The notes: a model not told the origin generated them from the sequence alone. DNA of 25,898 nt from an uncultured bacterium (GCA_937885075.1 CAKZYZ010000434.1:1-25898), one strand, 5' to 3'; positions 109 through 25,898 are shown, counted from the first letter of the stretch. Program-made: numbers and translations.

Positions 109-159
109 TTCGAGTAAGGTCAAGCTAAGTTCATCTTAGTGTCTTAGTGCCTTTGTGGC
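109..159. repeat. Partial/rearranged family A copy (tail then single arm)
   Basis: ttcgagtaaggtcaagctaagttc + atcttagtgtcttagtgcctttgtggc; tail motif 'ttcgagtaagRtcaagc' recurs at 17984-18000. Confidence 0.6.
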
Positions 160-163
160 GATT

Positions 164-1600
164 TTATTTAGAAAAAAATCCGATCCGGCTGAATATTGAC
201 CCCGCGCTGGAAATTATGCTCTTAAGATCGGCCCAGCTGTTTATGCTCAGGGCGGTCTGAATGATATAGGCCGGGCGAAAATAAAATTTCTTGTAGGCCC
301 GGACCCTCGCTTTCTCCGCCGCGTCCAGGGGGAACTCGGGTGTCTCGATCATCCCCAGGCAGGAAGAGAAATCCTCCCAGCTCTCATAACGGATCCAGCC
401 TTTCTCGGTTGTGGTATCAAAGAGTTCGGTTCCCGGATGCGGAATTGCCACCGCGAACTGGGCACTCCCCGGCTTGATCTTCTTCGCGAATTCTATCGTC
501 TCCCGGACCGTCTCCTCGGTCTCTCCCGGAAGCCCGAAGAGGAAGAATGCCTGAGTCCGGATCCCCACCTTCCGGGCCAGGCGGAACGCTTCCATCGCCT
601 TCTCGGTGGTGATGCCCTTCTTCATCAGCTTCAACATCCGGGGAGATCCCGATTCCACCCCGAACCGGATGTAACGGCAGCCGGCTTTCTTCATAGCCCG
701 CAGCACCTCTTCATCCATACTGTCTACCCGGCATTGGGAGATCCACTCAAACTTGATTCCCCGATCCACAATCAGCCGGCAAATTTCGAGCATCCGTTCC
801 TTATCCAGCGCCATCGAGTCATCATCAAAATATACTTCATCGATGCCGTACTTATTTACGCACTCCTCCAGTTCATCCACCACGTTCTTTGCCGTTCGGG
901 ACCGAAAATTATGCCCGTAGAGGGTATTGGGCCAGAGGCAGTATATACAGTGAAAGGGGCAGCCCCGGGAAGTAATCACCGTGGTGGGGTGCTTCCCCCG
1001 GAATGTCCCCTGGCGGTAGTTGGGGCTATCGACCAGATCCCGGGCCGGGAATGGAATCTCATCGAGATTCTCGATCACCGGACGATCCGGGTTGACTTTA
1101 ACCTCTCCATCTCTCCGCCAGGTCAGTCCAGGCACATCGGACCAATCCCGTCCTTCGGCCCGCGCCCGGACCAGATCCCGGACCGTGTAATCAAACTCAC
1201 CCCGGCAGATACCGTCCACCGAGGGATTTTCCGCCATGATCTCCTTGTGATAGACCGTGGGGTGAGAACCGATCAGGACCGTTTGGGTTGAAGGAGAGAC
1301 CTTCTTGACAGCGGCCGCGGATTGAAGATCAAAGTTGATCGAGGGGGTGGAGCACTCCAGAACCACTATATCCGGCCCGATCTCCTTTACCCGTTCCGCG
1401 AAATCTTCAATACTCAACTCCTCCAGGATCGCGTCCAGAAAACCGACCTCATATCCACTCTCCCGGACAATAGCCACCAGATAAGCGAGATAGATTGGAT
1501 ATTCAATAAATTTATCACTCCGCATATGCGGCCAGCGCACATCGGAGCGGGCCCCGAACCCTTCACCGGGCCAGGGGGGGTTTGTTATTAGTACTTTCAT
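164..1600 (-). CDS. B12-binding domain / radical SAM (class B) enzyme, probable methyltransferase-type
   Basis: 478 aa; N-terminal 'KVLITNPPW' cobalamin-binding-type beginning; canonical radical-SAM CxxxCxxC (RGCPFHCIYC); ATG at 1600; GGAG about 9 nt upstream. Confidence 0.85.
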   Translation of the reverse strand: MKVLITNPPWPGEGFGARSDVRWPHMRSDKFIEYPIYLAYLVAIVRESGYEVGFLDAILEELSIEDFAERVKEIGPDIVVLECSTPSINFDLQSAAAVKKVSPSTQTVLIGSHPTVYHKEIMAENPSVDGICRGEFDYTVRDLVRARAEGRDWSDVPGLTWRRDGEVKVNPDRPVIENLDEIPFPARDLVDSPNYRQGTFRGKHPTTVITSRGCPFHCIYCLWPNTLYGHNFRSRTAKNVVDELEECVNKYGIDEVYFDDDSMALDKERMLEICRLIVDRGIKFEWISQCRVDSMDEEVLRAMKKAGCRYIRFGVESGSPRMLKLMKKGITTEKAMEAFRLARKVGIRTQAFFLFGLPGETEETVRETIEFAKKIKPGSAQFAVAIPHPGTELFDTTTEKGWIRYESWEDFSSCLGMIETPEFPLDAAEKARVRAYKKFYFRPAYIIQTALSINSWADLKSIISSAGSIFSRIGFFSK

Positions 1601-2989: not shown

Positions 2990-3016
2990 TTTAATTGGCT
3001 CTCCTCGGTGGGGTTT

Positions 3017-3059
3017 TTATCCGACGGATCGGTCGGATCCGACCGATCCGACTGATTAA
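3017..3059. repeat. Repeat family C: GGATCC-centred REP-like palindrome
   Basis: ttatccgacggatcggtcggatcc|gaccgatccgactgattaa; imperfect at the outer end; immediately 3' of the acyltransferase gene (minus). Confidence 0.85.
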
Positions 3060-3097
3060 AAAAAACCGCCCCCCTCCATATTCACCGCCCTGGCCTG

Positions 3098-3856: not shown

Positions 3857-3881
3857 AAGAACTTATCCCTCTCTTTGTTCT

Positions 3882-3990
3882 GGCAACTTTGCCTCTAAGG
3901 AAAGCATGAAATCAGGAGAATTTAAAGTAATCCTCCTCCTGCCTTCCTGCTTTCCTTAGAGGTTATTGAAATTCCGAAGCAGTAAATTCA
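3882..3990. repeat. Repeat family B copy (imperfect hairpin cctctaaggaaagcaggaaatcaggag/ctcctcctgccttcctgctttccttagagg + tail ttattgaaattccgaagcagtaaatt)
   Basis: Shared about 100-bp element also at 12887-12995 and 21862-21992. Confidence 0.85.
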
Positions 3991-4943
3991 TCTTTGTGGT
4001 CTGCTTTTAATCTACAGGTTATCGCGACACAGATTAATTCCGCGACGACAGACCATATCCTGATAAAAACCGCAAAAATAGTACCATACCCGACCGGAAT
4101 CGAAAAGAGCGATTCTAAAAGAACCACGATAGAGAGTTCCGCTATCCCCAGACCGGCGGGCGTAAGAGGACTTATCGTTCCCAGTATCCATGATACCGCC
4201 ATTATCCCGGAGAATAACAGCCAGGAATATGCCGGAAGAGGGTGGGCCGCGAAGATATCACCGGGCAGAATAGTCAGAAGAAGATAGGTTGCCGCCCCTT
4301 TAATCAGCCAGAGACCGCACCAGTAGAGTACCAGCAGGAGGATGGAAGAGTAGCGGAGATTTACTCTCATCTCGATATGCTCAACCTTGCGGAGGAACCA
4401 GTTGAGAACCGGTTGAAAGATCCGGGGATGGAGCAGGGCCAACCCGATCGGGACCAGGGCTACCAGCAGAATGACCAGCCGGGAATCTCCGGCCACTTCC
4501 AGGCTGGGCCAGAGCGGCAATGTAGCAAGAGCGACCAATACCCCCGAGACCGCCAGGATTATCAGCATCGCGCCGACACTGGCGAGAGTTATCAACCGCG
4601 GCACCCCCTTCTTCTCCAGCATCACCACCCGACCGACCGCGGTCCAGATCTTGCCGGGGATATACTTGGCCAGTTCGCTCAGATAATATACCCGGAGAAT
4701 CTCCCCGTGTGAGACCACCTGCCCCAGGGCCCTCAGGATAAATCCCCACCCCAGGGCTACCAGGAGTCCTCCCCCCACCGTCATAATCATCGATAGAGCC
4801 AGGAGCCAGCGGTTGGCCTGAAGAAGACTCCGGGAAAATGCCTGCCAGTCAAGATCGATCAGGTTAAGAACCAGGAAATATCCGATCGCCCCCAGAATAA
4901 CAACCTGAACTATCCTGAAAATATAATGTTTGGTTATCTTCAT
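3963..4943 (-). CDS. Flippase-like / UPF0104 (lysylphosphatidylglycerol-synthase TM region-type) polytopic membrane protein
   Basis: 326 aa, about 8 predicted TM helices; N-terminus typical of this family; no SD; last 10 codons (KDEFTASEFQ) plus TAA are encoded by repeat B1 tail. Confidence 0.6.
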   Translation of the reverse strand: MKITKHYIFRIVQVVILGAIGYFLVLNLIDLDWQAFSRSLLQANRWLLALSMIMTVGGGLLVALGWGFILRALGQVVSHGEILRVYYLSELAKYIPGKIWTAVGRVVMLEKKGVPRLITLASVGAMLIILAVSGVLVALATLPLWPSLEVAGDSRLVILLVALVPIGLALLHPRIFQPVLNWFLRKVEHIEMRVNLRYSSILLLVLYWCGLWLIKGAATYLLLTILPGDIFAAHPLPAYSWLLFSGIMAVSWILGTISPLTPAGLGIAELSIVVLLESLFSIPVGYGTIFAVFIRIWSVVAELICVAITCRLKADHKDEFTASEFQ

Positions 4944-4952
4944 TAAAAAATA

Positions 4953-5064
4953 GCCACAAAGGAGCTAAGACACTAAGGAAAATAAGATACGTAGTTATTG
5001 CACCTATAATTCTTTTCTTTGTGTCTTCGTGTCTTTGTGGCAAAAAAACTGCGAAACTAAGTTC
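4953..5064. repeat. Repeat family A copy
   Basis: gccacaaaggagctaagacactaagg...ttctttgtgtcttcgtgtctttgtggc + aaaaaaactgcgaaactaagttc; about 90% identical to 1677-1800. Confidence 0.85.
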
Positions 5065-5147
5065 TTTTAACGTTCTTCTGCTTCAACGTCACTATTTTTC
5101 AACGTCAGTTATTTTAACGTTATAATTTAGCGCCAAGACGCTAAAGT
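5065..5147. repeat. Repeat family D: three to four ~16-bp-periodic TTTTCAACGTC direct repeats + E-type hairpin
   Basis: cttcaacgtcac tatttttcaacgtcag ttattttaacgtt ... aatttagcgccaagacgctaaagt; same arrangement at 18003-18091. Confidence 0.8.
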
Positions 5148-6826
5148 GTAGAGTAATCGACATCCACCCGATCGGAATGGGGCGTAATCTTTTTCTCTAT
5201 CTTCACACCTCCCGATCCGCTTAATATTTCACTGAGGCGAGCCTCATCACCCACGGCCGGGCGCGTCGAGATCAATCCGTTGGTTTTTACTTCGACTTCA
5301 ATCATAGCCTTCAGAGACCCCTCTCCCACCTCACCGGATATCTCATCCACTATCTCTATCGACTCATCCTTAAAGGTGATCGTCCGATTCAGCCGCCGGG
5401 ACGAAGCCCGGCCGGAGACCGCCGTAAGCTGAAACGAGGCGTTCTTTCTCCGGCGGATAAAATCAATCCCCTTCTTCACTATCAGATATCCGCCGGGGAG
5501 GCTGCTTATTGATTTCAGTAAAAACCGTGCCAGAGGATGAGGAAAATAATAAGAACCTTCCCGGAAGGAAGCGGTAACTTTCATCTCTCCTTCATCGGAC
5601 CAGGAGACTGTATTATCCGGGCCAAGGCGGAAAGAACTCCGGGACTTTTGATCCTGGGCCGTCAGAGTGTAGCCCCGATCCTGAAAAGAGAGATCTCCCC
5701 CCTCCGAAAATACCTTTACCAACCCTCCCGACTTTCCGGCGGATACGGCGTAATACCGCGCGGTCTTCACCGCCGCCAGGCCGCTTTCGGGGAAGAACCT
5801 CCGGAAAGGGTCGCCCTTAAACGGCAACTCCCGCCGGTCCCGACCCCATATTCCCTCATTCTCCCGGTAATGATCGTATGCCAGCAGACCATTATAGAGA
5901 TGATAACACCGGCTCAGATCATCCTGAGCTAACTGTACCATGGCATTTCCCCGGGCGATGCCCGCGGAGAAAAGTGAGCGGGCCAGAGGGGAGAATTCTC
6001 CCATGATAGATCCCGCCAAAAGTGAGATATATGAGTTTCCGCAGAGGTTATATTCCCGCCCGGTGGTCAGATCAGGATGGACGAAGTAGGCGAGGAAGTC
6101 GAGAGCCCGGCCTAACGCGTCCTTCAGCCTTTCATCCCGACTGTGGAGATAACATTGAGAGAGGTATTCCAGAGTGAGGAAGGAGTAGCCGGTATCAACC
6201 CCTCCCAATTCGGGAAACCACCCCTCCCGGGTCTGACGATCCAGGACCAGCTTTACCTTTCTCTCCGCCTCTTCGCGAAACCGGTCTTCCCCCAGTGTTT
6301 CTCCCAGGCTGTAGAGGGCGGCAGCGCCCACGGCTTCGTGGTTGATCTTATCAAGATCATCATGCCGGCAGAGCCATCCGGCGGCTCCGGAAAGTGCCTT
6401 CTTTATAACCTCGTGATCTTTGGAGCTCAACTCTTCTCTCAGTAACAAGAAGGTCTCCGAGAGAGCGAAACCGGAGAAGGCGGTCGCGGCGAATCCATGC
6501 TCTCCCGCGTACCACTCATCGAACGATCCGTCGGAATGCTGGAGTGATGCCCAGAAGAGCGCCCCGGCAACCGCCAACTCCCTGATCTCCTCGCGGCCAC
6601 GGCAGCTCACCCCCGGATAATCATTCTTATAGAGCAAGGCCAGAGTATAAACCGCTTCCTGGCAGCGAGCATTAACATAATCACTGCTCTTACTCCGCCA
6701 GTACGGGTAATAAAAACACCCATAGGTCGGCGAGAGCTGATCCCGGTCAGCCAGTTCAACCAGATCCCGCGAGGCACCGGCCATTGGGGTTATATAATCA
6801 AATACTTCTGGATTAATACCATTCAT
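5141..6826 (-). CDS. Heparinase II/III-like / polysaccharide-lyase-fold protein (possible sugar epimerase or lyase of glycan clusters)
   Basis: 561 aa; alpha/alpha-toroid-like N-terminal half and beta-rich C-terminal half recalled from Hepar_II_III family; co-located with GT4 and acyltransferase; no SD, hairpin abuts ATG; stop TAG inside repeat D1 hairpin. Confidence 0.45.
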   Translation of the reverse strand: MNGINPEVFDYITPMAGASRDLVELADRDQLSPTYGCFYYPYWRSKSSDYVNARCQEAVYTLALLYKNDYPGVSCRGREEIRELAVAGALFWASLQHSDGSFDEWYAGEHGFAATAFSGFALSETFLLLREELSSKDHEVIKKALSGAAGWLCRHDDLDKINHEAVGAAALYSLGETLGEDRFREEAERKVKLVLDRQTREGWFPELGGVDTGYSFLTLEYLSQCYLHSRDERLKDALGRALDFLAYFVHPDLTTGREYNLCGNSYISLLAGSIMGEFSPLARSLFSAGIARGNAMVQLAQDDLSRCYHLYNGLLAYDHYRENEGIWGRDRRELPFKGDPFRRFFPESGLAAVKTARYYAVSAGKSGGLVKVFSEGGDLSFQDRGYTLTAQDQKSRSSFRLGPDNTVSWSDEGEMKVTASFREGSYYFPHPLARFLLKSISSLPGGYLIVKKGIDFIRRRKNASFQLTAVSGRASSRRLNRTITFKDESIEIVDEISGEVGEGSLKAMIEVEVKTNGLISTRPAVGDEARLSEILSGSGGVKIEKKITPHSDRVDVDYSTL

Positions 6827-6850
6827 AAAATTAGCTCATTGCGCCGGGAA

Positions 6851-6898
6851 ATTATTATCCGACGGATCAGTCGGATCCGACTGATCCGTCGGATAATA
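6851..6898. repeat. Repeat family C: perfect 48-bp palindrome
   Basis: ttattatccgacggatcagtcggatcc|gactgatccgtcggataataa; 3' of the flotillin gene (minus). Confidence 0.9.
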
Positions 6899-6921
6899 AC
6901 TTCCCGAAAAAAGAGCCTGCG

Positions 6922-8379
6922 TTATTCTTCTTCCCCGGCAGCCTCGGACTCGGGCGGGGCCGGTTCGGGAGGAACCGGACCGGGAGAAGTTTTCCCATCC
7001 CCTTCCAACAACCGCGGCACCAGTTTGGTCAGATCCACTCCGGTCATCGCCTTCATCTGTTCCATGAAAGTCACCAGCGACTTCGGTGCGGCCGTCATCA
7101 AGCGGGAGACCGAACTCTCACTATCACCGGATCCGCCGTCGATGGCGATAACCTTGTCGAACTTAATATTACCGAGTGCGTCCGCCCCGGCTGCGGCCAC
7201 CACCTTGAGCGCTTCCAGGGCCAGGTTGAGCTTGGCCGCCTCTCCGTACATATCCCAGGCCCGGGCTTTCTGTTTTAGACCTTCAGCCTGCGCCTCGAGT
7301 ACCAGCTGAATCCCTTTCGCTTCAGCTTCCTTCTTCTTTAAAACGGCTGTCGCCTCTCCCTCCGCCTTCAAGATCGCGGCTAACTTCGCGGCTTGGGCCG
7401 GAACAACCATCTCCGCCTTATATTTCTGTTCTTCAGCACCGGCCCGGGCCTGTTCGGCCAGTTTCCGGGCCTGCTGATCGCGCTCTTTCACCCTCTGCTG
7501 CTCCACCACCACTGCCTGAAGAGCCTTGGCCTCGGCCAGGGGTCCCTGCTGATCGGCCCGTTTGTTGGCCGAAAGTGTCTCCCCGCGATAATTTTCCTGG
7601 GCCACATCCCGATCTTTCTGGGCTTCAGCGATCTGGCGCTCCTGCTCGGCCTTGACCACCTCCCCTTCCCGCCGGGCGGTCTCAGACTCTTTCATGGCGT
7701 CCCGTTCCGCCTGGGCCTTACCGATGGCGGCGTCCTTCTTTACCTCCGAGGTCCTCTTGACCCCAAGTGCCTCCAGGTATCCCCGCTCATCCCGGATATC
7801 CTGGATATTGATAATATCAATGATGACGCCGATCTTGGCCAGCTCTTCTCCGGACTGATCCAGGACCTTATCGACGAACATCTGCCTCTCCTGGTAGAGC
7901 TGCTCGACGGTCAGGACCCCGATAATATCACGGAGCTGACCCTCCAGTGTCTCCTTGATAATCTGTTTGATCTCCTGGGTTGAAGAACTGAGAAAACGTT
8001 CCACCGCCCGACCCAGCATCCCTTCATCACTGGAGATCTTAACATTAGCAACAGCTTCGATCGTCACCGGCACGCCTTCCTTGGAGTAGGCTTTCTCGAC
8101 CCGGACATCCTTCAGGTTGATCAGCTCAAGCGAGATACGGCTGATCTTCTCGAGGATAGGGATCTTCAGCGCTGCCCCTCCGACTATGGCTCGCCAGCCC
8201 CGCACTATCTGTTTCGTATTGCCATCCTGATCTATAACCGTAGTCCGGTACTTCCGACCGGTGAAGATCAAGGCCTCATTCGGCTCCGCCTTCCGGTAGT
8301 TACTGACAAATAAGATAAATACCGCCAGAATCCCGGCCAACGCCGCTATCACAATCAAAGGTACAATTATAACTCCCAT
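6922..8379 (-). CDS. Flotillin / SPFH (band 7) domain protein
   Basis: 485 aa; N-terminal TM; SPFH core; long Ala/Glu/Lys coiled-coil 'EA-repeat' region; Pro-rich acidic C-terminal tail; GGGAGG RBS. Confidence 0.85.
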   Translation of the reverse strand: MGVIIVPLIVIAALAGILAVFILFVSNYRKAEPNEALIFTGRKYRTTVIDQDGNTKQIVRGWRAIVGGAALKIPILEKISRISLELINLKDVRVEKAYSKEGVPVTIEAVANVKISSDEGMLGRAVERFLSSSTQEIKQIIKETLEGQLRDIIGVLTVEQLYQERQMFVDKVLDQSGEELAKIGVIIDIINIQDIRDERGYLEALGVKRTSEVKKDAAIGKAQAERDAMKESETARREGEVVKAEQERQIAEAQKDRDVAQENYRGETLSANKRADQQGPLAEAKALQAVVVEQQRVKERDQQARKLAEQARAGAEEQKYKAEMVVPAQAAKLAAILKAEGEATAVLKKKEAEAKGIQLVLEAQAEGLKQKARAWDMYGEAAKLNLALEALKVVAAAGADALGNIKFDKVIAIDGGSGDSESSVSRLMTAAPKSLVTFMEQMKAMTGVDLTKLVPRLLEGDGKTSPGPVPPEPAPPESEAAGEEE

Positions 8380-11740: not shown

Positions 11741-12880
11741 AACTTCCCTTCCTCCCCTCCCCCCTCCCCACGGCTCGAACGATTCACCTTTTAAGGCCGC
11801 CACAATCCGGGATGCGGCTTTCCCATCCCCGTAAGGATTTTGAGCCCGGGCCATCCGGTCATATTCCTCAGCATCATAGAGGAGCTTATCGAGACCAGCT
11901 TCTATCCTCCCGCGATGCGGTCCGACCAGCAGACAGGTCCCGGCCTCAACTCCCTCCGGACGCTCGGTTAGATCCCGGAGTACCAGAACCGGCTTGCCCA
12001 GAGCCGGTCCCTCTTCCTGGACACCGCCGGAATCGGAGAGAAGAAGCTTCGCGCCTTTCATGGCATGGCTGAAGGCGATATAATCCAGCGGTCCGCTCAG
12101 AACAATATTAGGTTTCCCCGCTAAGATCTCATGAGCAGGCTGAGAGACCTCAGGATTGGGATGGACCGGGTACCAGAGATATATCTCCCGATGGAGGGAA
12201 AGATAATCCCGGACTGTCTCAAATACCTCCCGGATCGGCCTACCGAATATCTCCCGCCGGTGACAGGTCATCAGGACATACGGTTGATCTGCAGGAACCG
12301 GGACAGGAGGCGGATCAGTCCGATTAAGAATATCAAAGAGCGAGTCAATTACGGTATTACCGGTTATAAAGACTGCCCCGCGGGATACCCCTTCCCGGAG
12401 GAGATTTTCGGCGGCGCTTTTGGTCGGAGCAAAGTTGTATTCAGCGGCCAATCCCGCGATCTTCCGATTAAACTCTTCCGGAAACGGAGCGGAGAGGTCT
12501 CCGGTCCGCAGGCCGGCCTCAATATGACCAAAAGAAACCTGGTTGTGAAAACAAGCGATAGATACCGCCATCACCGTGGTGGTATCGCCCTGGGCCAGTA
12601 CAATATCAACCGGATTGTCAGTAAGATATTCATTCACCCCGATCAGTACCCTCCCGGCCAGGGTATTTAAGCTCTGCCCGGGTCGCATCAAATCAAGATC
12701 AACATCAGGGACGATAGAGAAGACCTCCAGTATCTGGTCGAGCATATCCCGGTGCTGGGCCGTCGCCAGAACCCGGACCCGGAAAGTATCGGCCTCAGCC
12801 CGCAGAGCGGCGATAACCGGAGCGACCTTAATCGCTTCCGGGCGGGTCCCTACTACGCAGAGTATATCCTTAATTGTCAT
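11729..12880 (-). CDS. wecB: UDP-N-acetylglucosamine 2-epimerase (non-hydrolysing)
   Basis: VVGTRPEAIKVAP N-terminal motif and overall WecB/MnaA layout. Table start 12886 is GTG; the ATG at 12880 gives the typical N-terminus. About 20 extra C-terminal residues (GGGRGGR...) are encoded by a C-rich tract that runs into repeat F. Confidence 0.88.
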   Translation of the reverse strand: MTIKDILCVVGTRPEAIKVAPVIAALRAEADTFRVRVLATAQHRDMLDQILEVFSIVPDVDLDLMRPGQSLNTLAGRVLIGVNEYLTDNPVDIVLAQGDTTTVMAVSIACFHNQVSFGHIEAGLRTGDLSAPFPEEFNRKIAGLAAEYNFAPTKSAAENLLREGVSRGAVFITGNTVIDSLFDILNRTDPPPVPVPADQPYVLMTCHRREIFGRPIREVFETVRDYLSLHREIYLWYPVHPNPEVSQPAHEILAGKPNIVLSGPLDYIAFSHAMKGAKLLLSDSGGVQEEGPALGKPVLVLRDLTERPEGVEAGTCLLVGPHRGRIEAGLDKLLYDAEEYDRMARAQNPYGDGKAASRIVAALKGESFEPWGGGRGGREVISA

Positions 12881-12886
12881 TAGCAC

Positions 12887-12995
12887 ATAGCCCTCGCCTT
12901 ACTCGGGCAACTTTCCCTCTGAGGAAAGCAGGAAATCAGGAGAATTTAAAATACTCTCTCCTCCTGCCTTCCTGCTTTCCTTAGGTGTTATTGTC
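12887..12995. repeat. Repeat family B copy (with 'tagccctcg...cgggcaacttt' head; tail diverged)
   Basis: Alignment to 21862-21992 and 3882-3990; the head contributes the putative wecB RBS. Confidence 0.8.
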
Positions 12996-13041: not shown

Positions 13042-13078
13042 AAATTCCGGAATAGGAACTTGCACCTTCTATTCAGGT

Positions 13079-13131
13079 GTCGTTATCGGACGGATCGGTC
13101 GGATCCGACCGATCCGTCCGATAACAATAAC
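13079..13131. repeat. Repeat family C: perfect 44-bp palindrome with imperfect extension
   Basis: gttatcggacggatcggtcggatcc|gaccgatccgtccgataac; 3' of the amidohydrolase gene (minus). Confidence 0.9.
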
Positions 13132-13155
13132 GCCCCGCCTTGTTAACCGCGCGTC

Positions 13156-14926: not shown

Positions 14927-15044
14927 ATTTTTAACATACTCATACCGTATAGAGCCTTCAGATTACGGAAGAGGAGATCAGGTAACGAAATTTATCATAG
15001 CTATCAGGGATCTATACCTTCCCTGAACTAAAATGGAGAAAAAT

Positions 15045-16115
15045 ATGAAGAAAGCTGTTTTCGCCGTCGCCGGCGCCGTCTTCTTGCTTCTATCGGGAAC
15101 CGTCCTTTTGGCCGATAACTTTTCCGGGAGTGATGATTTCAATGATAATAATATTAATCTAAGTAAGTGGGATGATACCATGGGAGGCTTTGGTGATTTA
15201 ACCGAGGCAAATCAGCTCTTGGAACTGGATCTTGACGGGGGCGGCTCCTCCCCGCAGGGGCATCTTCCCTGGAAATTAAACTACGGATCATATACCCAGG
15301 ATTGGGAAGTATATTATGATATTAATGTCCCAACCTTCACTCAATTTTCCGGAGATGAAGCCTCCTCGATGAGCATATTTATCTATGCCCTGCCGATGGG
15401 AACCGGTGGCTATATCGGTATGACCCTGGGACAGGAAACCGGCAGCAGCCCCTCCCGGAAATTTATGGCGAACATGTCCACCCTCTCTGATACTACTGAA
15501 GCTGAAATCATGACCACATCCACCGAATCTTCCGTGAGAATTCACTGGGACGCCTCCAGCACCACGCTTTATTGTGACTATGATTCCGATGGGGGGAGTG
15601 ACAGCTGGACCAATCTGAAGTCCTGGAACATCGCCCCCGGCCAACCATATTCCTGGAATATGACAACTGGAAGCACTTTTATTTGCTTTTTGATCGGGCA
15701 AGCGGAAATAACTCATGGGGGGGAGACTAACCCCTCCGGAGATAATTTTGTAGCCAACAGCACACCGCCGACCGCGCCTCTGGCGATTTTCCGGCCCGGC
15801 AGCGGGCTCTGGGCCCTCCGGAACATTACCCGGGCTTACTTCGGCGGGTCCAGTGATATCCCGGTTTACTCCGACTATGACGGCGACGGGACCAAGGATA
15901 TCGCGATCTTCCGGGGTTCTACCGGGCTCTGGGCGCTCCGGGGGATAACCCGGGCCTACTTCGGGGGCGGCTCCGATGAACCCATACCGGGCGATTACAA
16001 CGATGACGGCAGCGCCGATATCGCGATCTTCCGGGAATCCACCGGACTCTGGGCGGTCCGCGGACTGACCCGGGGTTACTTCGGCGCCACCGGAGATATT
16101 CCTCTGGAGCCATAA
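15045..16115 (+). CDS. Secreted protein: degenerate concanavalin-like/GH16-like N-terminal domain plus 3 FG-GAP/VCBS-type repeats
   Basis: Signal peptide MKKAVFAVAGAVFLLLSGTVLLA; 'DDFNDNNINLSKW' and 'ELDLDG' resemble the GH16/ConA-like fold but lack ExDxxE; three about 40-aa tandem repeats (DYDGDGxxDIAIFRxSTGLWA-R). Table start 15033; ATG at 15045 has GGAG at -6. Confidence 0.7.
   Translation: MKKAVFAVAGAVFLLLSGTVLLADNFSGSDDFNDNNINLSKWDDTMGGFGDLTEANQLLELDLDGGGSSPQGHLPWKLNYGSYTQDWEVYYDINVPTFTQFSGDEASSMSIFIYALPMGTGGYIGMTLGQETGSSPSRKFMANMSTLSDTTEAEIMTTSTESSVRIHWDASSTTLYCDYDSDGGSDSWTNLKSWNIAPGQPYSWNMTTGSTFICFLIGQAEITHGGETNPSGDNFVANSTPPTAPLAIFRPGSGLWALRNITRAYFGGSSDIPVYSDYDGDGTKDIAIFRGSTGLWALRGITRAYFGGGSDEPIPGDYNDDGSADIAIFRESTGLWAVRGLTRGYFGATGDIPLEP
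15757..16112 (+). repeat. Intragenic ~120-nt coding tandem repeat x3 (FG-GAP modules)
   Basis: ctctgggc(g/c)ctccgg...acccgggc(c/t)tacttcgg...gatatcgcgatcttccgg recurs three times. Confidence 0.8.
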
Positions 16116-17983: not shown

Positions 17984-18091
17984 TTCGAGTAAGATCAAGC
18001 AATATTTTTTTAACGTCTTTTTTCTTCAACATCCTTATTTTTCAACGTCGGTTATCTTTAACGTTTAAATTAGTGCCGGAGGTGCTAATTT
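17984..18091. repeat. Repeat family D copy (with A-like 'ttcgagtaagatcaagc' head)
   Basis: ttttttaacgtc ttttttcttcaacatcc ttatttttcaacgtcgg ttatctttaacgtt + aaattagtgccggaggtgctaattt. Confidence 0.8.
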
Positions 18092-21861: not shown

Positions 21862-21992
21862 TAGCCCTCGGCTTTGCCTCGGGCAACTTTTCCTCTAAGG
21901 AGAGCAGGAAATCAGGAAAATTAAAATACTCCCTCCTCCTGCCTTCCTGCTTTCCTTAGGGGTTATTGAAATTCCGAAGCAGGAAATTAGTT
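21862..21992. repeat. Repeat family B copy (head + hairpin + tail)
   Basis: tagccctcggctttgcctcgggcaacttttcctctaaggagagcaggaaatcagg...ttccttaggggttattgaaattccgaagcaggaaatt. Confidence 0.85.
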
Positions 21993-23532: not shown

Positions 23533-23561
23533 TAAAACAACGGATTAATTTGTTGTTTTAT
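23533..23561. terminator. AT-rich hairpin (ataaaacaac ... gttgttttat) between the convergent deaminase and FAD-oxidoreductase genes
   Basis: 10-bp stem; stop codons of both genes flank it. Confidence 0.4.
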
Positions 23562-24691
23562 TAGAGGATCTTCTCCACCAGGTTCTTCACGTACCTCCCG
23601 ATCGCCGGGGCGGCGGTCAGGCCGGGGGACTCGATGCCGATCAGGTTTATCAGTCCCGGCAGGCCCCGGTCTTCTTCGTGATGGATAACGAAGTCCCGCT
23701 CCGCCTCTCCCTTCCGGTAGAGCTTGGGGCGGATCCCGGCCATATCAGGGGAGAGATTATCTCTCTGCAATTCCGGAAGATACTTTTCCGCGCCGCGGAA
23801 GAAATCCTCCCGATGCTGTTCGTCCACGGTATAGTCGACCTCATCCACATAGAAAGCGCTCGGACCGATCTTCATCCCGCCCTGAAGATCCACCACCGTG
23901 TGGAGGCCCAGACTGATCTCGGTCGGGGGGGGATAAACCAGATTGCTGAATAAGGCCCCCTCCGTCCCCCCGACCCGGAAGTACTCGCCCTTGCAGGGAT
24001 AGATCCTGTAACCGGCGGCGGCGGTATCGATCCCGGCCATTATCGCCACTCTCTCCGCCCCCAATCCGGCCGCGTTCACGACTACCCGGCTGAAAAACTC
24101 ATACTCCTCCCCGTCGGCATCACGGATCACTACCCGATAACCTTCCCCCTTCTTTTTGAGGGCGATAAGTTCACAGTTATACGCGAATGTCGTATCGCAG
24201 GAGGCCTTCTTCTCCAGGTAGGCCATCAGGCGATGGCTGTCGATAATACCGGTCCCGGAGGACCAGAGGCCCCCTTCCGCCCGCACCCGGGGCTCAATCG
24301 CCCGCACCTCGCCGCGGGAAAGAAGACGAAGCCCCTCAACTCCGTTCTCTTCCGCCCGCTCCTTCAGCGCCGCGATAACCGGGAGATCTCCCTTCTCGAT
24401 AGCGATGATAAGCTTACCGCATTTACGGAACGGAATATCCACCCGGGGACAGAGTTCGTAAAGAATCCGGCGCCCTTCGGTACAGAGCCGGGTCTTATGA
24501 AAATCCCTTGAGTAATAGATCCCGGCGTGGATCACCTCGCTGTTCCGGCTACTCGACTCCCGGCCGAACCCGTCATGCCGTTCCACCGCGATAATCTCCC
24601 TCCCCCCCCCGCTCAGCTCCGCCGCGACCGCCAGCCCCACCACCCCCACCCCAATAATAGCAACATCAACCTTTTCCAATTTATTCTCCAT
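23561..24691 (-). CDS. FAD-dependent oxidoreductase (L-2-hydroxyglutarate oxidase/LhgO-like)
   Basis: N-terminal dinucleotide-binding GxGxxG (VAIIGVGVVGLAVA); 376 aa; no SD. Confidence 0.7.
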   Translation of the reverse strand: MENKLEKVDVAIIGVGVVGLAVAAELSGGGREIIAVERHDGFGRESSSRNSEVIHAGIYYSRDFHKTRLCTEGRRILYELCPRVDIPFRKCGKLIIAIEKGDLPVIAALKERAEENGVEGLRLLSRGEVRAIEPRVRAEGGLWSSGTGIIDSHRLMAYLEKKASCDTTFAYNCELIALKKKGEGYRVVIRDADGEEYEFFSRVVVNAAGLGAERVAIMAGIDTAAAGYRIYPCKGEYFRVGGTEGALFSNLVYPPPTEISLGLHTVVDLQGGMKIGPSAFYVDEVDYTVDEQHREDFFRGAEKYLPELQRDNLSPDMAGIRPKLYRKGEAERDFVIHHEEDRGLPGLINLIGIESPGLTAAPAIGRYVKNLVEKIL

Positions 24692-24696
24692 TTTTA

Positions 24697-24829
24697 GGGG
24701 TCAAGTCTACTTATTGCTTAACTTTATATTTAAATTCTTCCCTGATCGGGTATATTTATAGGGGTCAAGTCTACTCATTGTTTAACTTTATATTTGAATT
24801 CCTTCCCTGATCGGGTATATATTTATCGT
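24697..24829. repeat. Two tandem ~64-bp direct repeats between the FAD-oxidoreductase and RayT-like genes
   Basis: ggggtcaagtctacttattgcttaactttatatttaaattcttccctgatcgggtatatttata (24697-24760), then a second copy (24761-~24829) with 4 substitutions and small indels. Confidence 0.85.
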
Positions 24830-24878
24830 TCGATTATATTAACAATTAAAACCAATATATCAAGGAGTCTTAAATACG

Positions 24879-25808
24879 ATGTCTCGACCCCTGAGAATTC
24901 AGTACCCCGGTGCCTGGTACCATATAATGAACCGTGGCGGCCATCATCGAAATATTTTCAGCAATGAGAATGATCGACTGGAATTTTTACGATTGCTAAA
25001 GGAAACGATTGAGATGTGGGAGATAGAGGTGCATGCTTATTCATTGCTGGATACGCATTATCATCTTCTAATCCATACACCCCTGGGCAACCTTTCCCGG
25101 GCAATGAGGCATATCGGCGGAGTTTATACTCAACGTTATAACATTCGTCATGATACTGATGGTCAACTATTTCGGGGAAGATATAAATCAATCCTGGTAG
25201 ATAAAGATAATTATCTGCTGGAAGTAGTGAGATATATTCACCTGCAAGGAGTTCGGGCAGGGATAATAAGTCAGCCTGAAGATGATATCTGGTCATCTTA
25301 TCGGGCATATTTATTCCAGCAGGATAGCTTGACCTGGTTAAGCACCGGGAAAATACTCAGTATTTTTAACAGGAACCGCTCGGCCGCAAGAAAACGACTG
25401 ATTGAATTTATCAGCAATGGTATCTCTCCCGGTATCAAAGAATTCTATTCCAAAGAAAGGCTATCTCCAGTGTTGGGTTCTAAAGAGTTTATTAAAAATA
25501 TCAAGGATACTTACATAATTCCGGAAGCGCCTTTCTATGAAATCCCGGATAGTAAAGTCAAAAATGGCCACAGCACAATAACTATGATAAATAAAATAGT
25601 CTGTGAGCAATATCTCATCTCACAAAAATCCTTGCTGGAAGTATCCAGGGGAATTCACAATGAACCACGGGATATCGCGGTATATTTAGCCCGGCAAGAG
25701 GGGAAATATTCTTTGAATGAAATTGCTGATAGTTACGGTTTCTCAAGTTATTCCGGAGTTAATTCAACCATCAGGAGAATTAAACATCGCTTAAAAACAG
25801 ACAAGAAC
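24879..25808 (+). CDS. RayT-like (COG1943) HUH Y1 tyrosine transposase fused to DnaA-C-like HTH; 3'-truncated by adapter at contig end
   Basis: N-terminus 'RPLRIQYPGAWYHIMNRG' and HUH motif 'THYHLLIHTP' typical of IS200-like/REP-associated Y1 transposases. C-terminal 'IAVYLARQEGKYSLNEIADSYGFSSYSGV' resembles the DnaA C-terminal HTH. AAGGAG RBS. ORF continues into adapter-derived sequence (25809 onward), so the true end is unknown. Confidence 0.7.
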
Positions 25809-25885
25809 AGATCGGAAGAGCGTCGTGTAGGGAAAGAGTGTAGATCTCGGTGGTCGCCGGAGCATTAAAAAAAAAAAAGAAAAAA
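25809..25885. other. Sequencing artefact: Illumina TruSeq universal adapter (reverse complement) followed by poly-A
   Basis: 25809-25859 = AGATCGGAAGAGCGTCGTGTAGGGAAAGAGTGTAGATCTCGGTGGTCGCCG, a 51/51 match to the revcomp of the TruSeq universal adapter. Then 'gagcatt' (adapter has TATCATT), then A12 G A6. Confidence 0.93.
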
Positions 25886-25898
25886 CTGAATGTTAGAT

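What the first reader, a model, noticed from the sequence alone, without database searches (positions are those of the whole stretch)
24692..25808. HUH (RayT-like) nuclease fused to a DnaA-C-like HTH, preceded by two 64-bp direct repeats: transposase or Rep-like initiator with iterons?
The protein combines an N-terminal Y1 HUH domain (YHIMNRG...HYHLLIH) with a C-terminal segment (IAVYLARQEGKYSLNEIADSYGFS...) that resembles the DnaA domain-IV helix-turn-helix. Classical RAYTs are about 150-aa single-domain proteins. Immediately upstream (24697-24829) are two tandem 64-bp direct repeats, iteron-like, rather than the flanking inverted REPs expected for a classical RAYT. Possible explanations:
- a domesticated transposase with sequence-specific targeting through the HTH;
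- a rolling-circle-type initiator with its origin repeats;
- an element whose right end is lost at the contig break.
Basis: partly seen in the sequence, partly recalled or inferred. Interest (0 to 1): 0.65.

Follow-up and report, generated by a model that had tools for sequence, protein, structure and literature searches.

The report
TIR-flanked tyrosine transposase with duplicated end
This is a member of an already described, very widespread group of RAYT-like tyrosine (HUH) transposases that carry a DnaA-type DNA-binding tail and sit between terminal inverted repeats; the "iterons" are a local doubling of the element's left end, and the right end is missing only because the contig stops there.

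Summary
ORF 24879-25808 has a Y1 HUH domain and a DnaA domain-IV-like HTH, by sequence and by predicted structure. Two 64-bp tandem units lie at 24690-24818.

The ORF is cut at residue 310. Positions 25809 onward are an Illumina adapter plus poly-A, so the last 19 codons and the stop are artefacts.

The architecture is known: TnpAY1 subclass 2.1.2 (Quentin 2018), equated with TIRYT/TIRtrons (Di Nocera 2013). About 6,000 homologues share it.

Each 64-bp unit starts with the family's terminal inverted repeat, TAGGGGTCAAGTCTAC. Syntenic orthologues (56-93% identity) have one left copy and an inverted copy after the stop codon. Across 85 loci with 37-82% identical proteins, the box GGGGTCAAGTCT flanks nearly every gene.

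The "iterons" are therefore a lineage-specific tandem duplication of the left end (TIR plus promoter-like site). An independent assembly carries the same duplication.

A rolling-circle initiator is not supported: the context is a conserved chromosomal one, orthologues have a single unit, and plasmids and phages are almost free of homologues.

In this lineage the element looks fixed. Synteny is conserved, the TIR hairpin has decayed, and both neighbouring genes start at its ends.

It is a new member of a known kind, of modest interest.

The parts
24690..24753 (+). 64-bp unit 1: a duplicated copy of the element's left end. It abuts the ribosome-binding site and start of the divergent FAD-oxidoreductase gene.
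   Evidence: TRF; the repeat finder; alignment to orthologues with a single unit.
24754..24818 (+). 64/65-bp unit 2: the copy of the left end next to the gene. It is about 92% identical to unit 1.
   Evidence: The same duplication is in the independent assembly L102.
24695..24724 (+). Terminal inverted repeat, copy 1 (TAGGGGTCAAGTCTACTTATTGCTTAACTT). The core box GGGGTCAAGTCT is at 24697-24708.
   Evidence: Exact 16-mer hits. The same 30 nt are found inverted at both ends of the orthologous elements L001 and L005. The box consensus comes from 139 ends.
24759..24788 (+). Terminal inverted repeat, copy 2 (TAGGGGTCAAGTCTACTCATTGTTTAACTT). The core box is at 24761-24772.
24794..24823 (+). Sigma-70-like promoter match (TTGAAT-N18-TATATT) inside unit 2, facing the transposase gene. 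A weaker duplicate (TTTAAA-N16-TATATT) lies at 24729-24756 in unit 1.
   Evidence: Consensus scan, (3 sites found against 1.3 expected). This is a consensus match only.
24836..24863 (-). Promoter-like site (TTGATA-N16-TAATAT, with an extended TG) facing the FAD-oxidoreductase gene. Its transcript would run through both units.
   Evidence: consensus match only.
24862..24867 (+). Shine-Dalgarno sequence AAGGAG, 11 nt before the ATG.
   Evidence: Read from the sequence. It is conserved in L001, L005 and L101.
24879..25808 (+). TIRYT gene (TnpAY1 subclass 2.1.2), residues 1-310 of about 322-326. The 3' end is lost at the contig break.
24912..25247 (+). Y1 HUH nuclease domain (aa 12-123). HUH is H60-Y-H62 (25056-25064). 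The catalytic Tyr is Y119 (25233-25235). A WSS motif lies at aa 138-140.
   Evidence: Pfam. H60, H62, Y119, W138 and S140 are invariant in the 18-sequence alignment. Foldseek hits 4er8 and the IS608/ISDra2 TnpA structures.
25581..25781 (+). DnaA domain-IV-like helix-turn-helix (aa 235-301). The arginine aligned with the conserved DnaA arginine (PRQIAMYL in 8btg) is invariant (R264). The DnaA signature RDHTTV is replaced by SSYSGV.
25809..25898 (.). Illumina TruSeq adapter read-through plus poly-A. This is not biological sequence. It supplies the false last 19 codons and the stop of the 329-aa ORF.
   Evidence: Exact 33-nt adapter match with 0 expected by chance; sequence.
23561..24679 (-). Divergent neighbour, a FAD-dependent oxidoreductase (DAO family). 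Its likely true start is TTG at 24679, with SD GGAG at 24683-24686, about 10 nt from the TIR.
   Evidence: Pfam. A 372-aa gene call exists on the 25,898-nt contig. Synteny is shown.

Best explanation
The locus is a 'TIRtron': a compact element of about 1.2 kb, made of one gene between two terminal inverted repeats (TIRs).

The gene encodes a TIRYT, that is, TnpAY1 subclass 2.1.2. This is a RAYT-like single-tyrosine HUH nuclease with a helical middle domain, a flexible linker and a DnaA domain-IV-type HTH.

Shown:
- The protein architecture is present, with intact HUH and Tyr residues.
- The element's left TIR is present twice in the window, because a 64-bp block (TIR plus promoter-like site) was tandemly duplicated in this lineage.
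- Orthologues have one left TIR and an inverted right TIR after the stop codon.
- The window lacks the right TIR only because the contig ends.
- The box GGGGTCAAGTCT is nearly invariant at both ends of family members whose proteins are only 37-48% identical to the window protein.

Inferred:
- The HTH binds the double-stranded GGGGTCA box at both ends, which would explain why the ends are symmetric. It would thereby position the HUH domain to nick one strand at or near the small TIR hairpin (GTCAAG-loop-CTTGAC).
- In typical members the hairpin's 3' arm, TTGAC, doubles as the -35 box of a promoter for a leaderless mRNA, so binding would also autoregulate the gene.
- In the window's lineage the element is probably no longer mobile. 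It has been inherited vertically at one site, its hairpin arm has decayed, it has acquired an SD-led 5' UTR, and both neighbouring genes start at its ends.
- The perfectly conserved boxes then suggest that protein binding is retained, for autoregulation or for control of the neighbours. The duplication doubles that operator and promoter.
For: Architecture. Catalytic residues invariant. All of the best 120 of 5,985 homologues listed have the same two Pfam domains.

Literature: subclass 2.1.2 carries Bac_DnaA_C, has no REPs and is equated with TIRYTs that have GGGGWSAS TIRs (PMC6006769; PMC3733652).

TIRs in orthologues: L001-L005, L019, L021 and L101.

Family-wide TIR: of 85 loci, the box is found on the left in 73, on the right in 66 and on both sides in 56. 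The consensus is AAA|GGGGTCAAGTCTnCnnTTGACTcTT.

Spacing and promoter: in 49 loci the left box starts 50-53 nt before the ATG, a -10-like element follows, and there is no SD.

Hairpin: it folds in L017 (-7.7 kcal/mol, z -2.6) but not in the window (z +0.35).

Duplication: orthologues have a single unit, and the same duplication is in the independent assembly L102.

Fixation: DAO upstream and a PMT_2/TPR gene downstream are conserved down to 56% protein identity, but not in more distant members.

Mobility elsewhere in the family: two 138-bp gene-less TIR doublets, identical but for 2 substitutions, have unrelated flanks in L016. Further doublets are in L006, L010 and L015.
Against: - No experiment shows that the HTH binds the box or that the HUH domain cuts there.
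- The right end of this particular copy is not in the window.
- The box matches the published GGGGWSAS motif at only 7 of 8 positions.
- The comparison of HTH recognition-helix variants with box variants is suggestive at best and is confounded by phylogeny.
- Intact catalytic residues and intact boxes would also fit an element that is still mobile.
- The gene's GC content stays 14-16 points below its flanks throughout the clade. That is odd for a long-resident gene and is unexplained.
Confidence: 0.82

Rival explanations
1. It is a still-active insertion-sequence-like transposon. The protein excises and reinserts the TIR-bounded unit in this genome, and the doubled left end is a by-product of aberrant or one-ended transposition.
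For: The ORF is intact, with invariant HUH and Tyr residues. The TIR boxes are perfectly conserved. MITE-like TIR doublets have multiplied in another genome. Direct TIR pairs also occur elsewhere, for example L008 with 54-bp spacing. The gene's low GC relative to its flanks is typical of acquired DNA.
Against: The chromosomal neighbours are the same in relatives down to 56% protein identity. There is no second TIR copy in the 25.9-kb window. The TIR hairpin has decayed and does not fold better than shuffled sequence. Both neighbouring genes start at or inside the ends, so excision would damage them. The duplication junctions share the short motif ATTTWT, which suggests replication slippage (read from the sequence).
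Confidence: 0.12
2. It is a rolling-circle-type (Rep-like) initiator whose origin consists of the two 64-bp iterons.
For: HUH nucleases include the RCR Rep proteins. A DnaA-type HTH next to direct repeats resembles initiator-iteron systems. In about 23% of family ends a second GGGGTCA box lies 11-13 nt outside the TIR, in direct orientation.
Against: Orthologues have one unit, not two. The same sequence recurs inverted at the other end of the gene. The context is a conserved chromosomal one, with metabolic and glycosyltransferase neighbours. Only 1 of 72,556 plasmids and no phage has a full-length homologue. The best structural match is the RAYT/IS200 Y1 fold, not a Rep protein.
Confidence: 0.02
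3. It is a classical RAYT that mobilises the other palindromic intergenic repeat families present in the window (REP or REPIN-like). The 64-bp units would then be incidental.
For: The window is unusually rich in intergenic palindromic repeat families. The N-terminal domain is RAYT-like.
Against: None of those families contains the GGGGTCA box, and none flanks this gene. The NCBIfam REP_Tyr_transpos score is 49.8, below the cutoff of 80. Subclass 2.1 was found not to be associated with REPs (PMC6006769). The sequence conserved with the protein across the family is the TIR.
Confidence: 0.04

Closest known systems
TIRYT / TIRtron (Di Nocera, De Gregorio & Rocco 2013, PMC3733652)
   Same: A RAYT-like tyrosine transposase gene longer than classical RAYTs. 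It is flanked at fixed short distances by terminal inverted repeats that share a GGGG-led motif. The TIRs are sometimes found as dimers or clusters elsewhere in the genome.
   Different: The box here is GGGGTCAA, which matches 7 of 8 positions of GGGGWSAS. In this copy the left end is tandemly duplicated and the right end is not in the window. In this lineage the TIR-to-ATG distance is 122-130 nt (186 with the duplication) instead of about 51, and the TIR hairpin has decayed.
TnpAY1 subclass 2.1, subgroup 2.1.2 (Quentin, Siguier, Chandler & Fichant 2018, PMC6006769)
   Same: An HUH/Y1 core, a serine motif (WSS) after the catalytic Tyr, a C-terminal Bac_DnaA_C-like HTH, and no REPs near the gene.
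   Different: Nothing essential. That paper doubted that the HTH reads the TIR, because the TIR does not resemble a DnaA box. Here the residues at the DnaA signature positions are replaced (RDHTTV to SSYSGV), and the box is nearly invariant across the family. A changed specificity is therefore plausible.
E. coli RAYT / TnpAREP (PDB 4er8) and REPtrons
   Same: It is the best structural match for the N-terminal domain (E 4.5e-8, TM 0.76). It has the same HUH and single-Tyr chemistry. It is a single-copy, vertically inherited gene flanked by its cognate repeats in inverted orientation.
   Different: The RAYT is about 165 aa with no HTH, and it recognises REP hairpins with a GTAG head that occur in hundreds of copies. 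Here the protein has at least 310 aa and a DnaA-like HTH. The window's TIR does not fold, and there are no further copies in the window. The NCBIfam equivalog cutoff is not reached.
DnaA domain IV (PDB 1j1v, 8btg)
   Same: The fold matches (rmsd 1.8 A, 32% identity), as do the whole-domain sequence profile (E 6e-14) and the conserved arginine (R264).
   Different: There is no AAA+ domain and no domains I-II. The DnaA signature motif (RDHTTV) is replaced by SSYSGV. No DnaA box (TTATCCACA) is present in the repeats.
IS200/IS605 TnpA (IS608, ISDra2)
   Same: The Y1 HUH fold matches (Foldseek E about 1e-5), and there are small hairpins at the ends in typical family members.
   Different: IS200/IS605 ends are asymmetric, with no TIRs, and are read as single-stranded hairpins. 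The protein has about 130-150 aa and no HTH.

Membership tests
TIRYT / TnpAY1 subclass 2.1.2 | Y1 core with an HUH motif and a single catalytic tyrosine | tested here: met
   Pfam Y1_Tnp scores 43.8 bits against a cutoff of 23. H60, H62 and Y119 are invariant in the alignment. The fold matches 4er8 and IS608/ISDra2 TnpA.
TIRYT / TnpAY1 subclass 2.1.2 | C-terminal extension with a Bac_DnaA_C-type or other HTH | tested here: met
   Bac_DnaA_C scores 34.1 bits against a cutoff of 31.5. The family profile hits PDB DnaA at E 6e-14. The model matches 1j1v at rmsd 1.8 A.
TIRYT / TnpAY1 subclass 2.1.2 | Gene flanked by terminal inverted repeats, both ends present | tested here: inconclusive
   The left TIR is present twice in the window. 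The right end lies beyond the contig break and adapter. Syntenic orthologues at 56-82% identity have both ends, and the 93% relative L101 shows the right end although its contig is cut inside the left end. So do 56 of 85 family loci, the rest mostly limited by short flanks.
TIRYT / TnpAY1 subclass 2.1.2 | TIR carries the GGGGWSAS motif | tested here: inconclusive
   The window has GGGGTCAA, which matches 7 of 8 positions (A instead of S at the last one). The same deviation is the majority form among 139 ends. Variants with GGGGTCAG fit the motif exactly.
TIRYT / TnpAY1 subclass 2.1.2 | No REP family associated with the gene | tested here: met
   No hairpin-forming REP flanks the gene. There is no further copy of the flanking repeat in the 25.9-kb window. 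The whole genome was not available.
Classical RAYT / REPtron | Reaches the NCBIfam REP_Tyr_transpos equivalog score | tested here: not met
   49.8 bits against a cutoff of 80.
Classical RAYT / REPtron | Single-domain protein of about 150-190 aa, flanked by REP hairpins | tested here: not met
   The protein has at least 310 aa and an extra HTH domain. The flanking repeat does not fold better than shuffled sequence (z +0.35 and +0.87).
IS200/IS605 | Asymmetric ends with subterminal hairpins and no terminal inverted repeats | tested here: not met
   The ends of orthologues are 27-31-nt inverted repeats.
Rolling-circle Rep initiator with iterons | Resides on a plasmid, phage or other replicon, with the origin repeats conserved in copy number among orthologues | tested here: not met
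   The context is chromosomal and syntenic. Orthologues have one unit. One full-length hit was found in 72,556 plasmids and none in phages.
Rolling-circle Rep initiator with iterons | Supports autonomous replication of DNA carrying the repeats | not testable with these tools
   This needs a replication assay.
DnaA | AAA+ domain III together with domain IV | tested here: not met
   Only domain IV is matched: TIGR00362 positions 340-424 and PDB DnaA residues 333-445.

The most novel reading that the evidence does not exclude
The DnaA-type HTH has been retargeted to the double-stranded GGGGTCA box. This subfamily would then be a hybrid Y1 transposase that finds its ends as duplex DNA, which explains the TIRs, the one-helical-turn 'outer boxes' and a promoter built into the TIR, yet cuts single strands.

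In the window's lineage the element would be domesticated. It would act as a fixed operator-plus-regulator cassette controlling itself and the two genes that start at its ends. The 64-bp duplication would double the operator and promoter.
Probability: 0.3. Interest if true: 0.55.

Novelty: new member of a known kind. Interest (0 to 1): 0.3.

Why it matters
For the window itself it matters little. The result removes an apparent novelty: the 'HUH-DnaA fusion with iterons' is a described and very common protein class, seen here with a truncated end.

The family is still biochemically uncharacterised. Three findings give concrete substrates for the first in vitro test of a TIRYT, and for asking how a single-strand HUH nuclease uses a duplex-binding domain:
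- One 12-nt box is nearly invariant at both ends across proteins only 37-48% identical to the query and from several phyla.
- The left box sits at a fixed distance from a leaderless start codon.
- Some genomes carry multiplied gene-less doublets of the TIRs.

Tried and rejected
1. The 26-nt inverted match between the TIR and the start of the gene (24690-24715 against 24873-24898) was rejected as a functional repeat. It lies in the conserved codons S-R-P-L-R, and its GGGG is broken by a synonymous change in L001, L005 and L101.

2. Hairpin formation by the 64-bp units was tested on both strands. They fold no better than shuffled sequence.

3. I looked for further copies of the TIR or unit in the window and found none, even with up to 3 mismatches.

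4. An Rfam scan of the whole window gave no hit.

5. A functional link to the downstream PMT_2/TPR gene was considered. The association holds only within the window's clade, so it reflects vertical inheritance and is not a family trait.

6. Covariation between the HTH recognition helix and box variants was examined. Divergent boxes often go with divergent helices, but L079 is an exception and phylogeny confounds the comparison, so it is inconclusive.

7. Three of the 13 genome hits to the 18-mer (L012, L013, L014) look like chance matches, with no hairpin half or partner.

8. The literature search for the box sequence returned only unrelated primer matches.

9. I could not establish which RAYT group of Bertels et al. 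(PMC5581495) corresponds to this family.

Full report
**What is in the window**

ORF 24879-25868 (+) was listed as 329 aa. From 25809 onward, however, the sequence is an exact Illumina TruSeq adapter (AGATCGGAAGAGCGTCGTGTAGGGAAAGAGTGT; 0 matches expected by chance), followed by poly-A.
- Genuine sequence therefore ends at 25808.
- The protein is cut at residue 310.
- The last 19 codons and the stop are artefacts.
- Full-length relatives have 322-332 aa.

Upstream, Tandem Repeats Finder reports a 64-bp period with 2.0 copies, 92% matches and score 227, at 24690-24820. The two units are 24690-24753 and 24754-24818.

The divergent neighbour on the minus strand (23561-24691) is a DAO-family FAD oxidoreductase. 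Its likely real start is the TTG at 24679, preceded by GGAG. A 372-aa gene call on a 25,898-nt contig exists in the protein collection. The first repeat unit therefore begins about 10 nt from that gene's ribosome-binding site.

**The protein**

*Sequence evidence*
- Pfam gives Y1_Tnp at aa 12-123 (43.8 bits, cutoff 23) and Bac_DnaA_C at aa 235-301 (34.1 bits, cutoff 31.5).
- NCBIfam's classical RAYT equivalog is matched only below threshold (49.8 against 80). DnaA models match through domain IV only.
- A profile of 18 family members hits DnaA domain IV in the PDB at E 6e-14.

*Structural evidence*
- The AlphaFold model has mean pLDDT 86.6. It shows an N-terminal domain (aa 1-215), a disordered linker (aa 216-227) and a C-terminal helical domain.
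- Foldseek puts the E. coli RAYT-REP complex 4er8 first (E 4.5e-8, TM 0.76).
- IS608 and ISDra2 TnpA follow.
- It also finds the DnaA domain IV-DnaA box complex 1j1v (rmsd 1.8 A over 78 columns, 32% identity).

*Conserved residues*
- H60 and H62 (the HUH motif), Y119, W138 and S140 are invariant in the alignment. So is R264, which aligns with the conserved arginine of DnaA (PRQIAMYL in 8btg).
- The DnaA signature RDHTTV is replaced by SSYSGV here, and by xxYS(S/T)VS in the family consensus.

**The architecture is already described**

All 120 best of 5,985 homologues carry the same two Pfam domains.

Quentin, Siguier, Chandler and Fichant (PMC6006769) placed such proteins in TnpAY1 subclass 2.1.
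- Subgroup 2.1.2 has a C-terminal Bac_DnaA_C-like HTH.
- They found no REPs near these genes.
- They equated the subclass with the TIRYTs of Di Nocera et al.

Di Nocera et al. (PMC3733652) described RAYT-like genes flanked by terminal inverted repeats. Many of these share the motif GGGGWSAS, lie at similar distances from the gene, and sometimes occur as dimers or clusters elsewhere in the genome.

**What the 64-bp repeats are**

Each unit begins with TAGGGGTCAAGTCTAC (24695 and 24759).

Orthologous loci were fetched by exact protein look-up:
- L001-L004 and L005 (82% identity),
- L021 (64%),
- L019 (56%),
- L101 (93%).

The 82% loci have the same neighbours as the window (DAO upstream, PMT_2/TPR downstream). 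L019 and L021 keep the PMT_2/TPR gene downstream. L101 is a 1.2-kb contig that shows only the start of that downstream ORF. Where the left end is on the contig (all but L101, which is cut inside it), it carries one copy of the unit's 5' part. All of them carry an inverted copy just after the stop codon. For example, L001 has 5870-5899 (+) and 7021-7050 (-), matching at 29 of 30 nt.

The repeats are therefore the element's terminal inverted repeat. The window shows a tandem duplication of the left end and lacks the right end only because the contig stops.

The duplication is real. An independent assembly (L102, GCA_011041085.1) has it with only a few SNPs. The duplicated block is bounded by the short motif ATTTWT, which suggests replication slippage; that is an inference.

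Each unit also contains a sigma-70-like consensus match facing the gene: TTGAAT-N18-TATATT at 24794-24823, and a weaker copy at 24729-24756. A minus-strand match at 24863-24836 faces DAO. These are consensus matches only.

**The family picture**

A metagenome scan with the family alignment returned 79 loci whose proteins are 37-48% identical to the query. A genome scan for the 18-mer returned 13 more.

*A nearly invariant terminal box*
- Across 85 distinct gene-bearing loci, a GGGGTCAAGTCT-like box (up to 2 mismatches) was found on the left in 73, on the right in 66 and on both sides in 56. Most of the misses had short flanks.
- The consensus of 139 ends is AAA|GGGGTCAAGTCTnCnnTTGACTcTT.
- This is a GGGG head followed by a small hairpin, GTCAAG-loop-CTTGAC.
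- The hairpin folds in L017 (-7.7 kcal/mol, z -2.6) but not in the window's clade, where the 3' arm has decayed (z +0.35).

*A promoter built into the left TIR*
- In 49 loci the left box starts 50-53 nt before the ATG.
- The TTGAC arm is followed about 15-17 nt later by a TGnTAnnnT-like element that ends 6-7 nt before the ATG.
- There is no Shine-Dalgarno sequence.
- This layout fits a promoter whose -35 box lies in the TIR and a leaderless mRNA. That reading is an inference from consensus.

*Differences in the window's clade*
- The box-to-ATG distance is 107-130 nt, or 186 in the window with the duplication.
- An AAGGAG Shine-Dalgarno sequence is present in the 82-93% relatives (GGGAG in L021, AAGGAT in L019).
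- In the 82% orthologues the DAO ribosome-binding site abuts the left TIR.
- In L001, L005, L019, L021 and L101 the called start of the downstream PMT_2/TPR ORF lies just inside the right TIR, which encodes K-V-D-L-T-P in L001 and L101.

*Inheritance and mobility*
- The PMT_2 association is confined to this clade. It indicates long vertical inheritance at one site.
- Elsewhere the family shows signs of mobility. L016 has two 138-bp gene-less TIR doublets that are identical but for 2 substitutions and have unrelated flanks. L006, L010 and L015 carry other doublets, and L008 a direct pair.

**Rival readings**

*Rolling-circle initiator with iterons.* This is contradicted on four counts.
- Orthologues have a single unit.
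- The gene has an inverted partner of the repeat at its other end.
- The context is chromosomal and syntenic.
- Only one of 72,556 plasmids has a full-length homologue, and no phage does. That one is a 365-kb Legionella adelaidensis plasmid whose gene also has variant TIRs, AGGGTCAGGCCT on both sides.

*Classical RAYT acting on the window's other palindromic repeat families.* This is not supported. Those families lack the box and do not flank the gene.

*A still-mobile element in this genome.* This cannot be excluded, since the ORF and boxes are intact. It is made less likely by the conserved synteny, the decayed hairpin and the dependence of both neighbours on the ends.

**Mechanism**

*Shown*
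- The domain architecture, with intact catalytic residues.
- The identity of the repeats as the element's TIR, and their conservation across the family.
- The duplication, the truncation and the synteny.

*Inferred*
- The HTH reads the duplex GGGGTCA box at both ends.
- The HUH domain nicks at or near the hairpin.
- Binding at the left TIR autoregulates the gene.
- In this lineage the element is fixed, and the boxes survive as protein-binding sites.

Quentin et al. doubted that the HTH reads the TIR, because the TIR does not resemble a DnaA box. Three things make a retargeted specificity plausible but unproven:
- the replaced DnaA signature residues (RDHTTV to SSYSGV),
- the near-invariance of the box,
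- a second, co-varying box one helical turn outside the TIR in about 23% of ends.

**Verdict**

This is a new member of a known kind (TIRYT, TnpAY1 subclass 2.1.2) with a lineage-specific duplication of its left end. Interest is modest.

Noticed in passing
window 25809-25898: Illumina TruSeq adapter read-through plus poly-A at the contig end. It creates a false C-terminus (RSEERRVGKECRSRWSPEH) and stop codon for the ORF. Any protein predicted from this contig end is contaminated.
   Followed up: yes
window 126-178, 1676-1778, 4934-5042; 3010-3073, 6848-6911, 13076-13139; 3879-3988, 12876-12993, 21879-21988; 5062-5134, 18005-18077: There are several other families of intergenic, mostly palindromic repeats in AT-rich spacers. 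Examples are TTATCCGACGGATCrGTCGGATCCGACyGATCCGTCGGATAA, TGCCACAAAGGCACTAAGACACAAAGAAAA and CCTCTAAGGAAAGCAGGAAATCAGGAG with its complement. None contains the GGGGTCA box. What spreads them is unknown.
   Followed up: partly
L022-L100 (for example L042 1962-2018, L093 886-940): In 49 family loci the left TIR box starts 50-53 nt before the ATG. The hairpin's 3' arm, TTGAC, sits where a -35 box would. A TGnTAnnnT-like -10 element ends 6-7 nt before the ATG, and there is no Shine-Dalgarno sequence. This suggests a TIR-embedded promoter and a leaderless mRNA. I did not find this layout in the papers read here.
   Followed up: partly
L019 3875-3908, L021 3650-3680, L042, L067, L079, L090, L103 269-294 and others: A second 'outer' GGGGTCA box lies 11-13 nt outside the TIR box, in direct orientation, at 17 of 73 left ends and 15 of 66 right ends. 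Where the inner box is the variant GGTGTCA (L079, L090), the outer box is the same variant. It is absent from the window's left end.
   Followed up: partly
L016 1111-1248 and 2814-2951; L015 1619-1709; L010 18-91; L006 1026-1111: Gene-less inverted TIR doublets (MITE-like) occur in other genomes. The two L016 copies are identical but for 2 substitutions over 138 bp, have unrelated flanks and bracket a 472-aa ORF. The L006 doublet sits directly after the last repeat of a CRISPR array.
   Followed up: partly
window 24879-25808; L001 6001-6981; L005; L019; L021: Throughout the window's clade the gene is 12-16 GC points below its flanks (41% against 53% in the window, and 37-44% against 51-58% in the orthologous loci), despite apparently long vertical inheritance. 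More distant family members show no systematic difference. This is unexplained.
   Followed up: partly
L001 7014-7050, L101 1105-1141, L019 4996-5032, L021 3626-3665: The called start codon of the downstream PMT_2/TPR membrane protein lies just inside the element's right end. The right TIR then encodes residues 7-12 (K-V-D-L-T-P) in L001 and L101. In L019 the two ORFs overlap by 4 nt, which suggests co-transcription with the transposase gene.
   Followed up: partly
window 24677-24691: The ATG start of the 376-aa DAO ORF is probably an over-extension. A TTG four codons downstream (24679), preceded by GGAG (24683-24686), matches a 372-aa gene call on the same-length contig in the public collection.
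   Followed up: partly
window 15752-16084: Three in-frame copies of a repeat with 120-nt period (93 nt aligned) lie inside ORF 15033-16115. The syntenic ORF in L001 (692-1753) has no Pfam hit on record, so the repeat's domain identity is unknown. This is a coding repeat, not a regulatory one.
   Followed up: no
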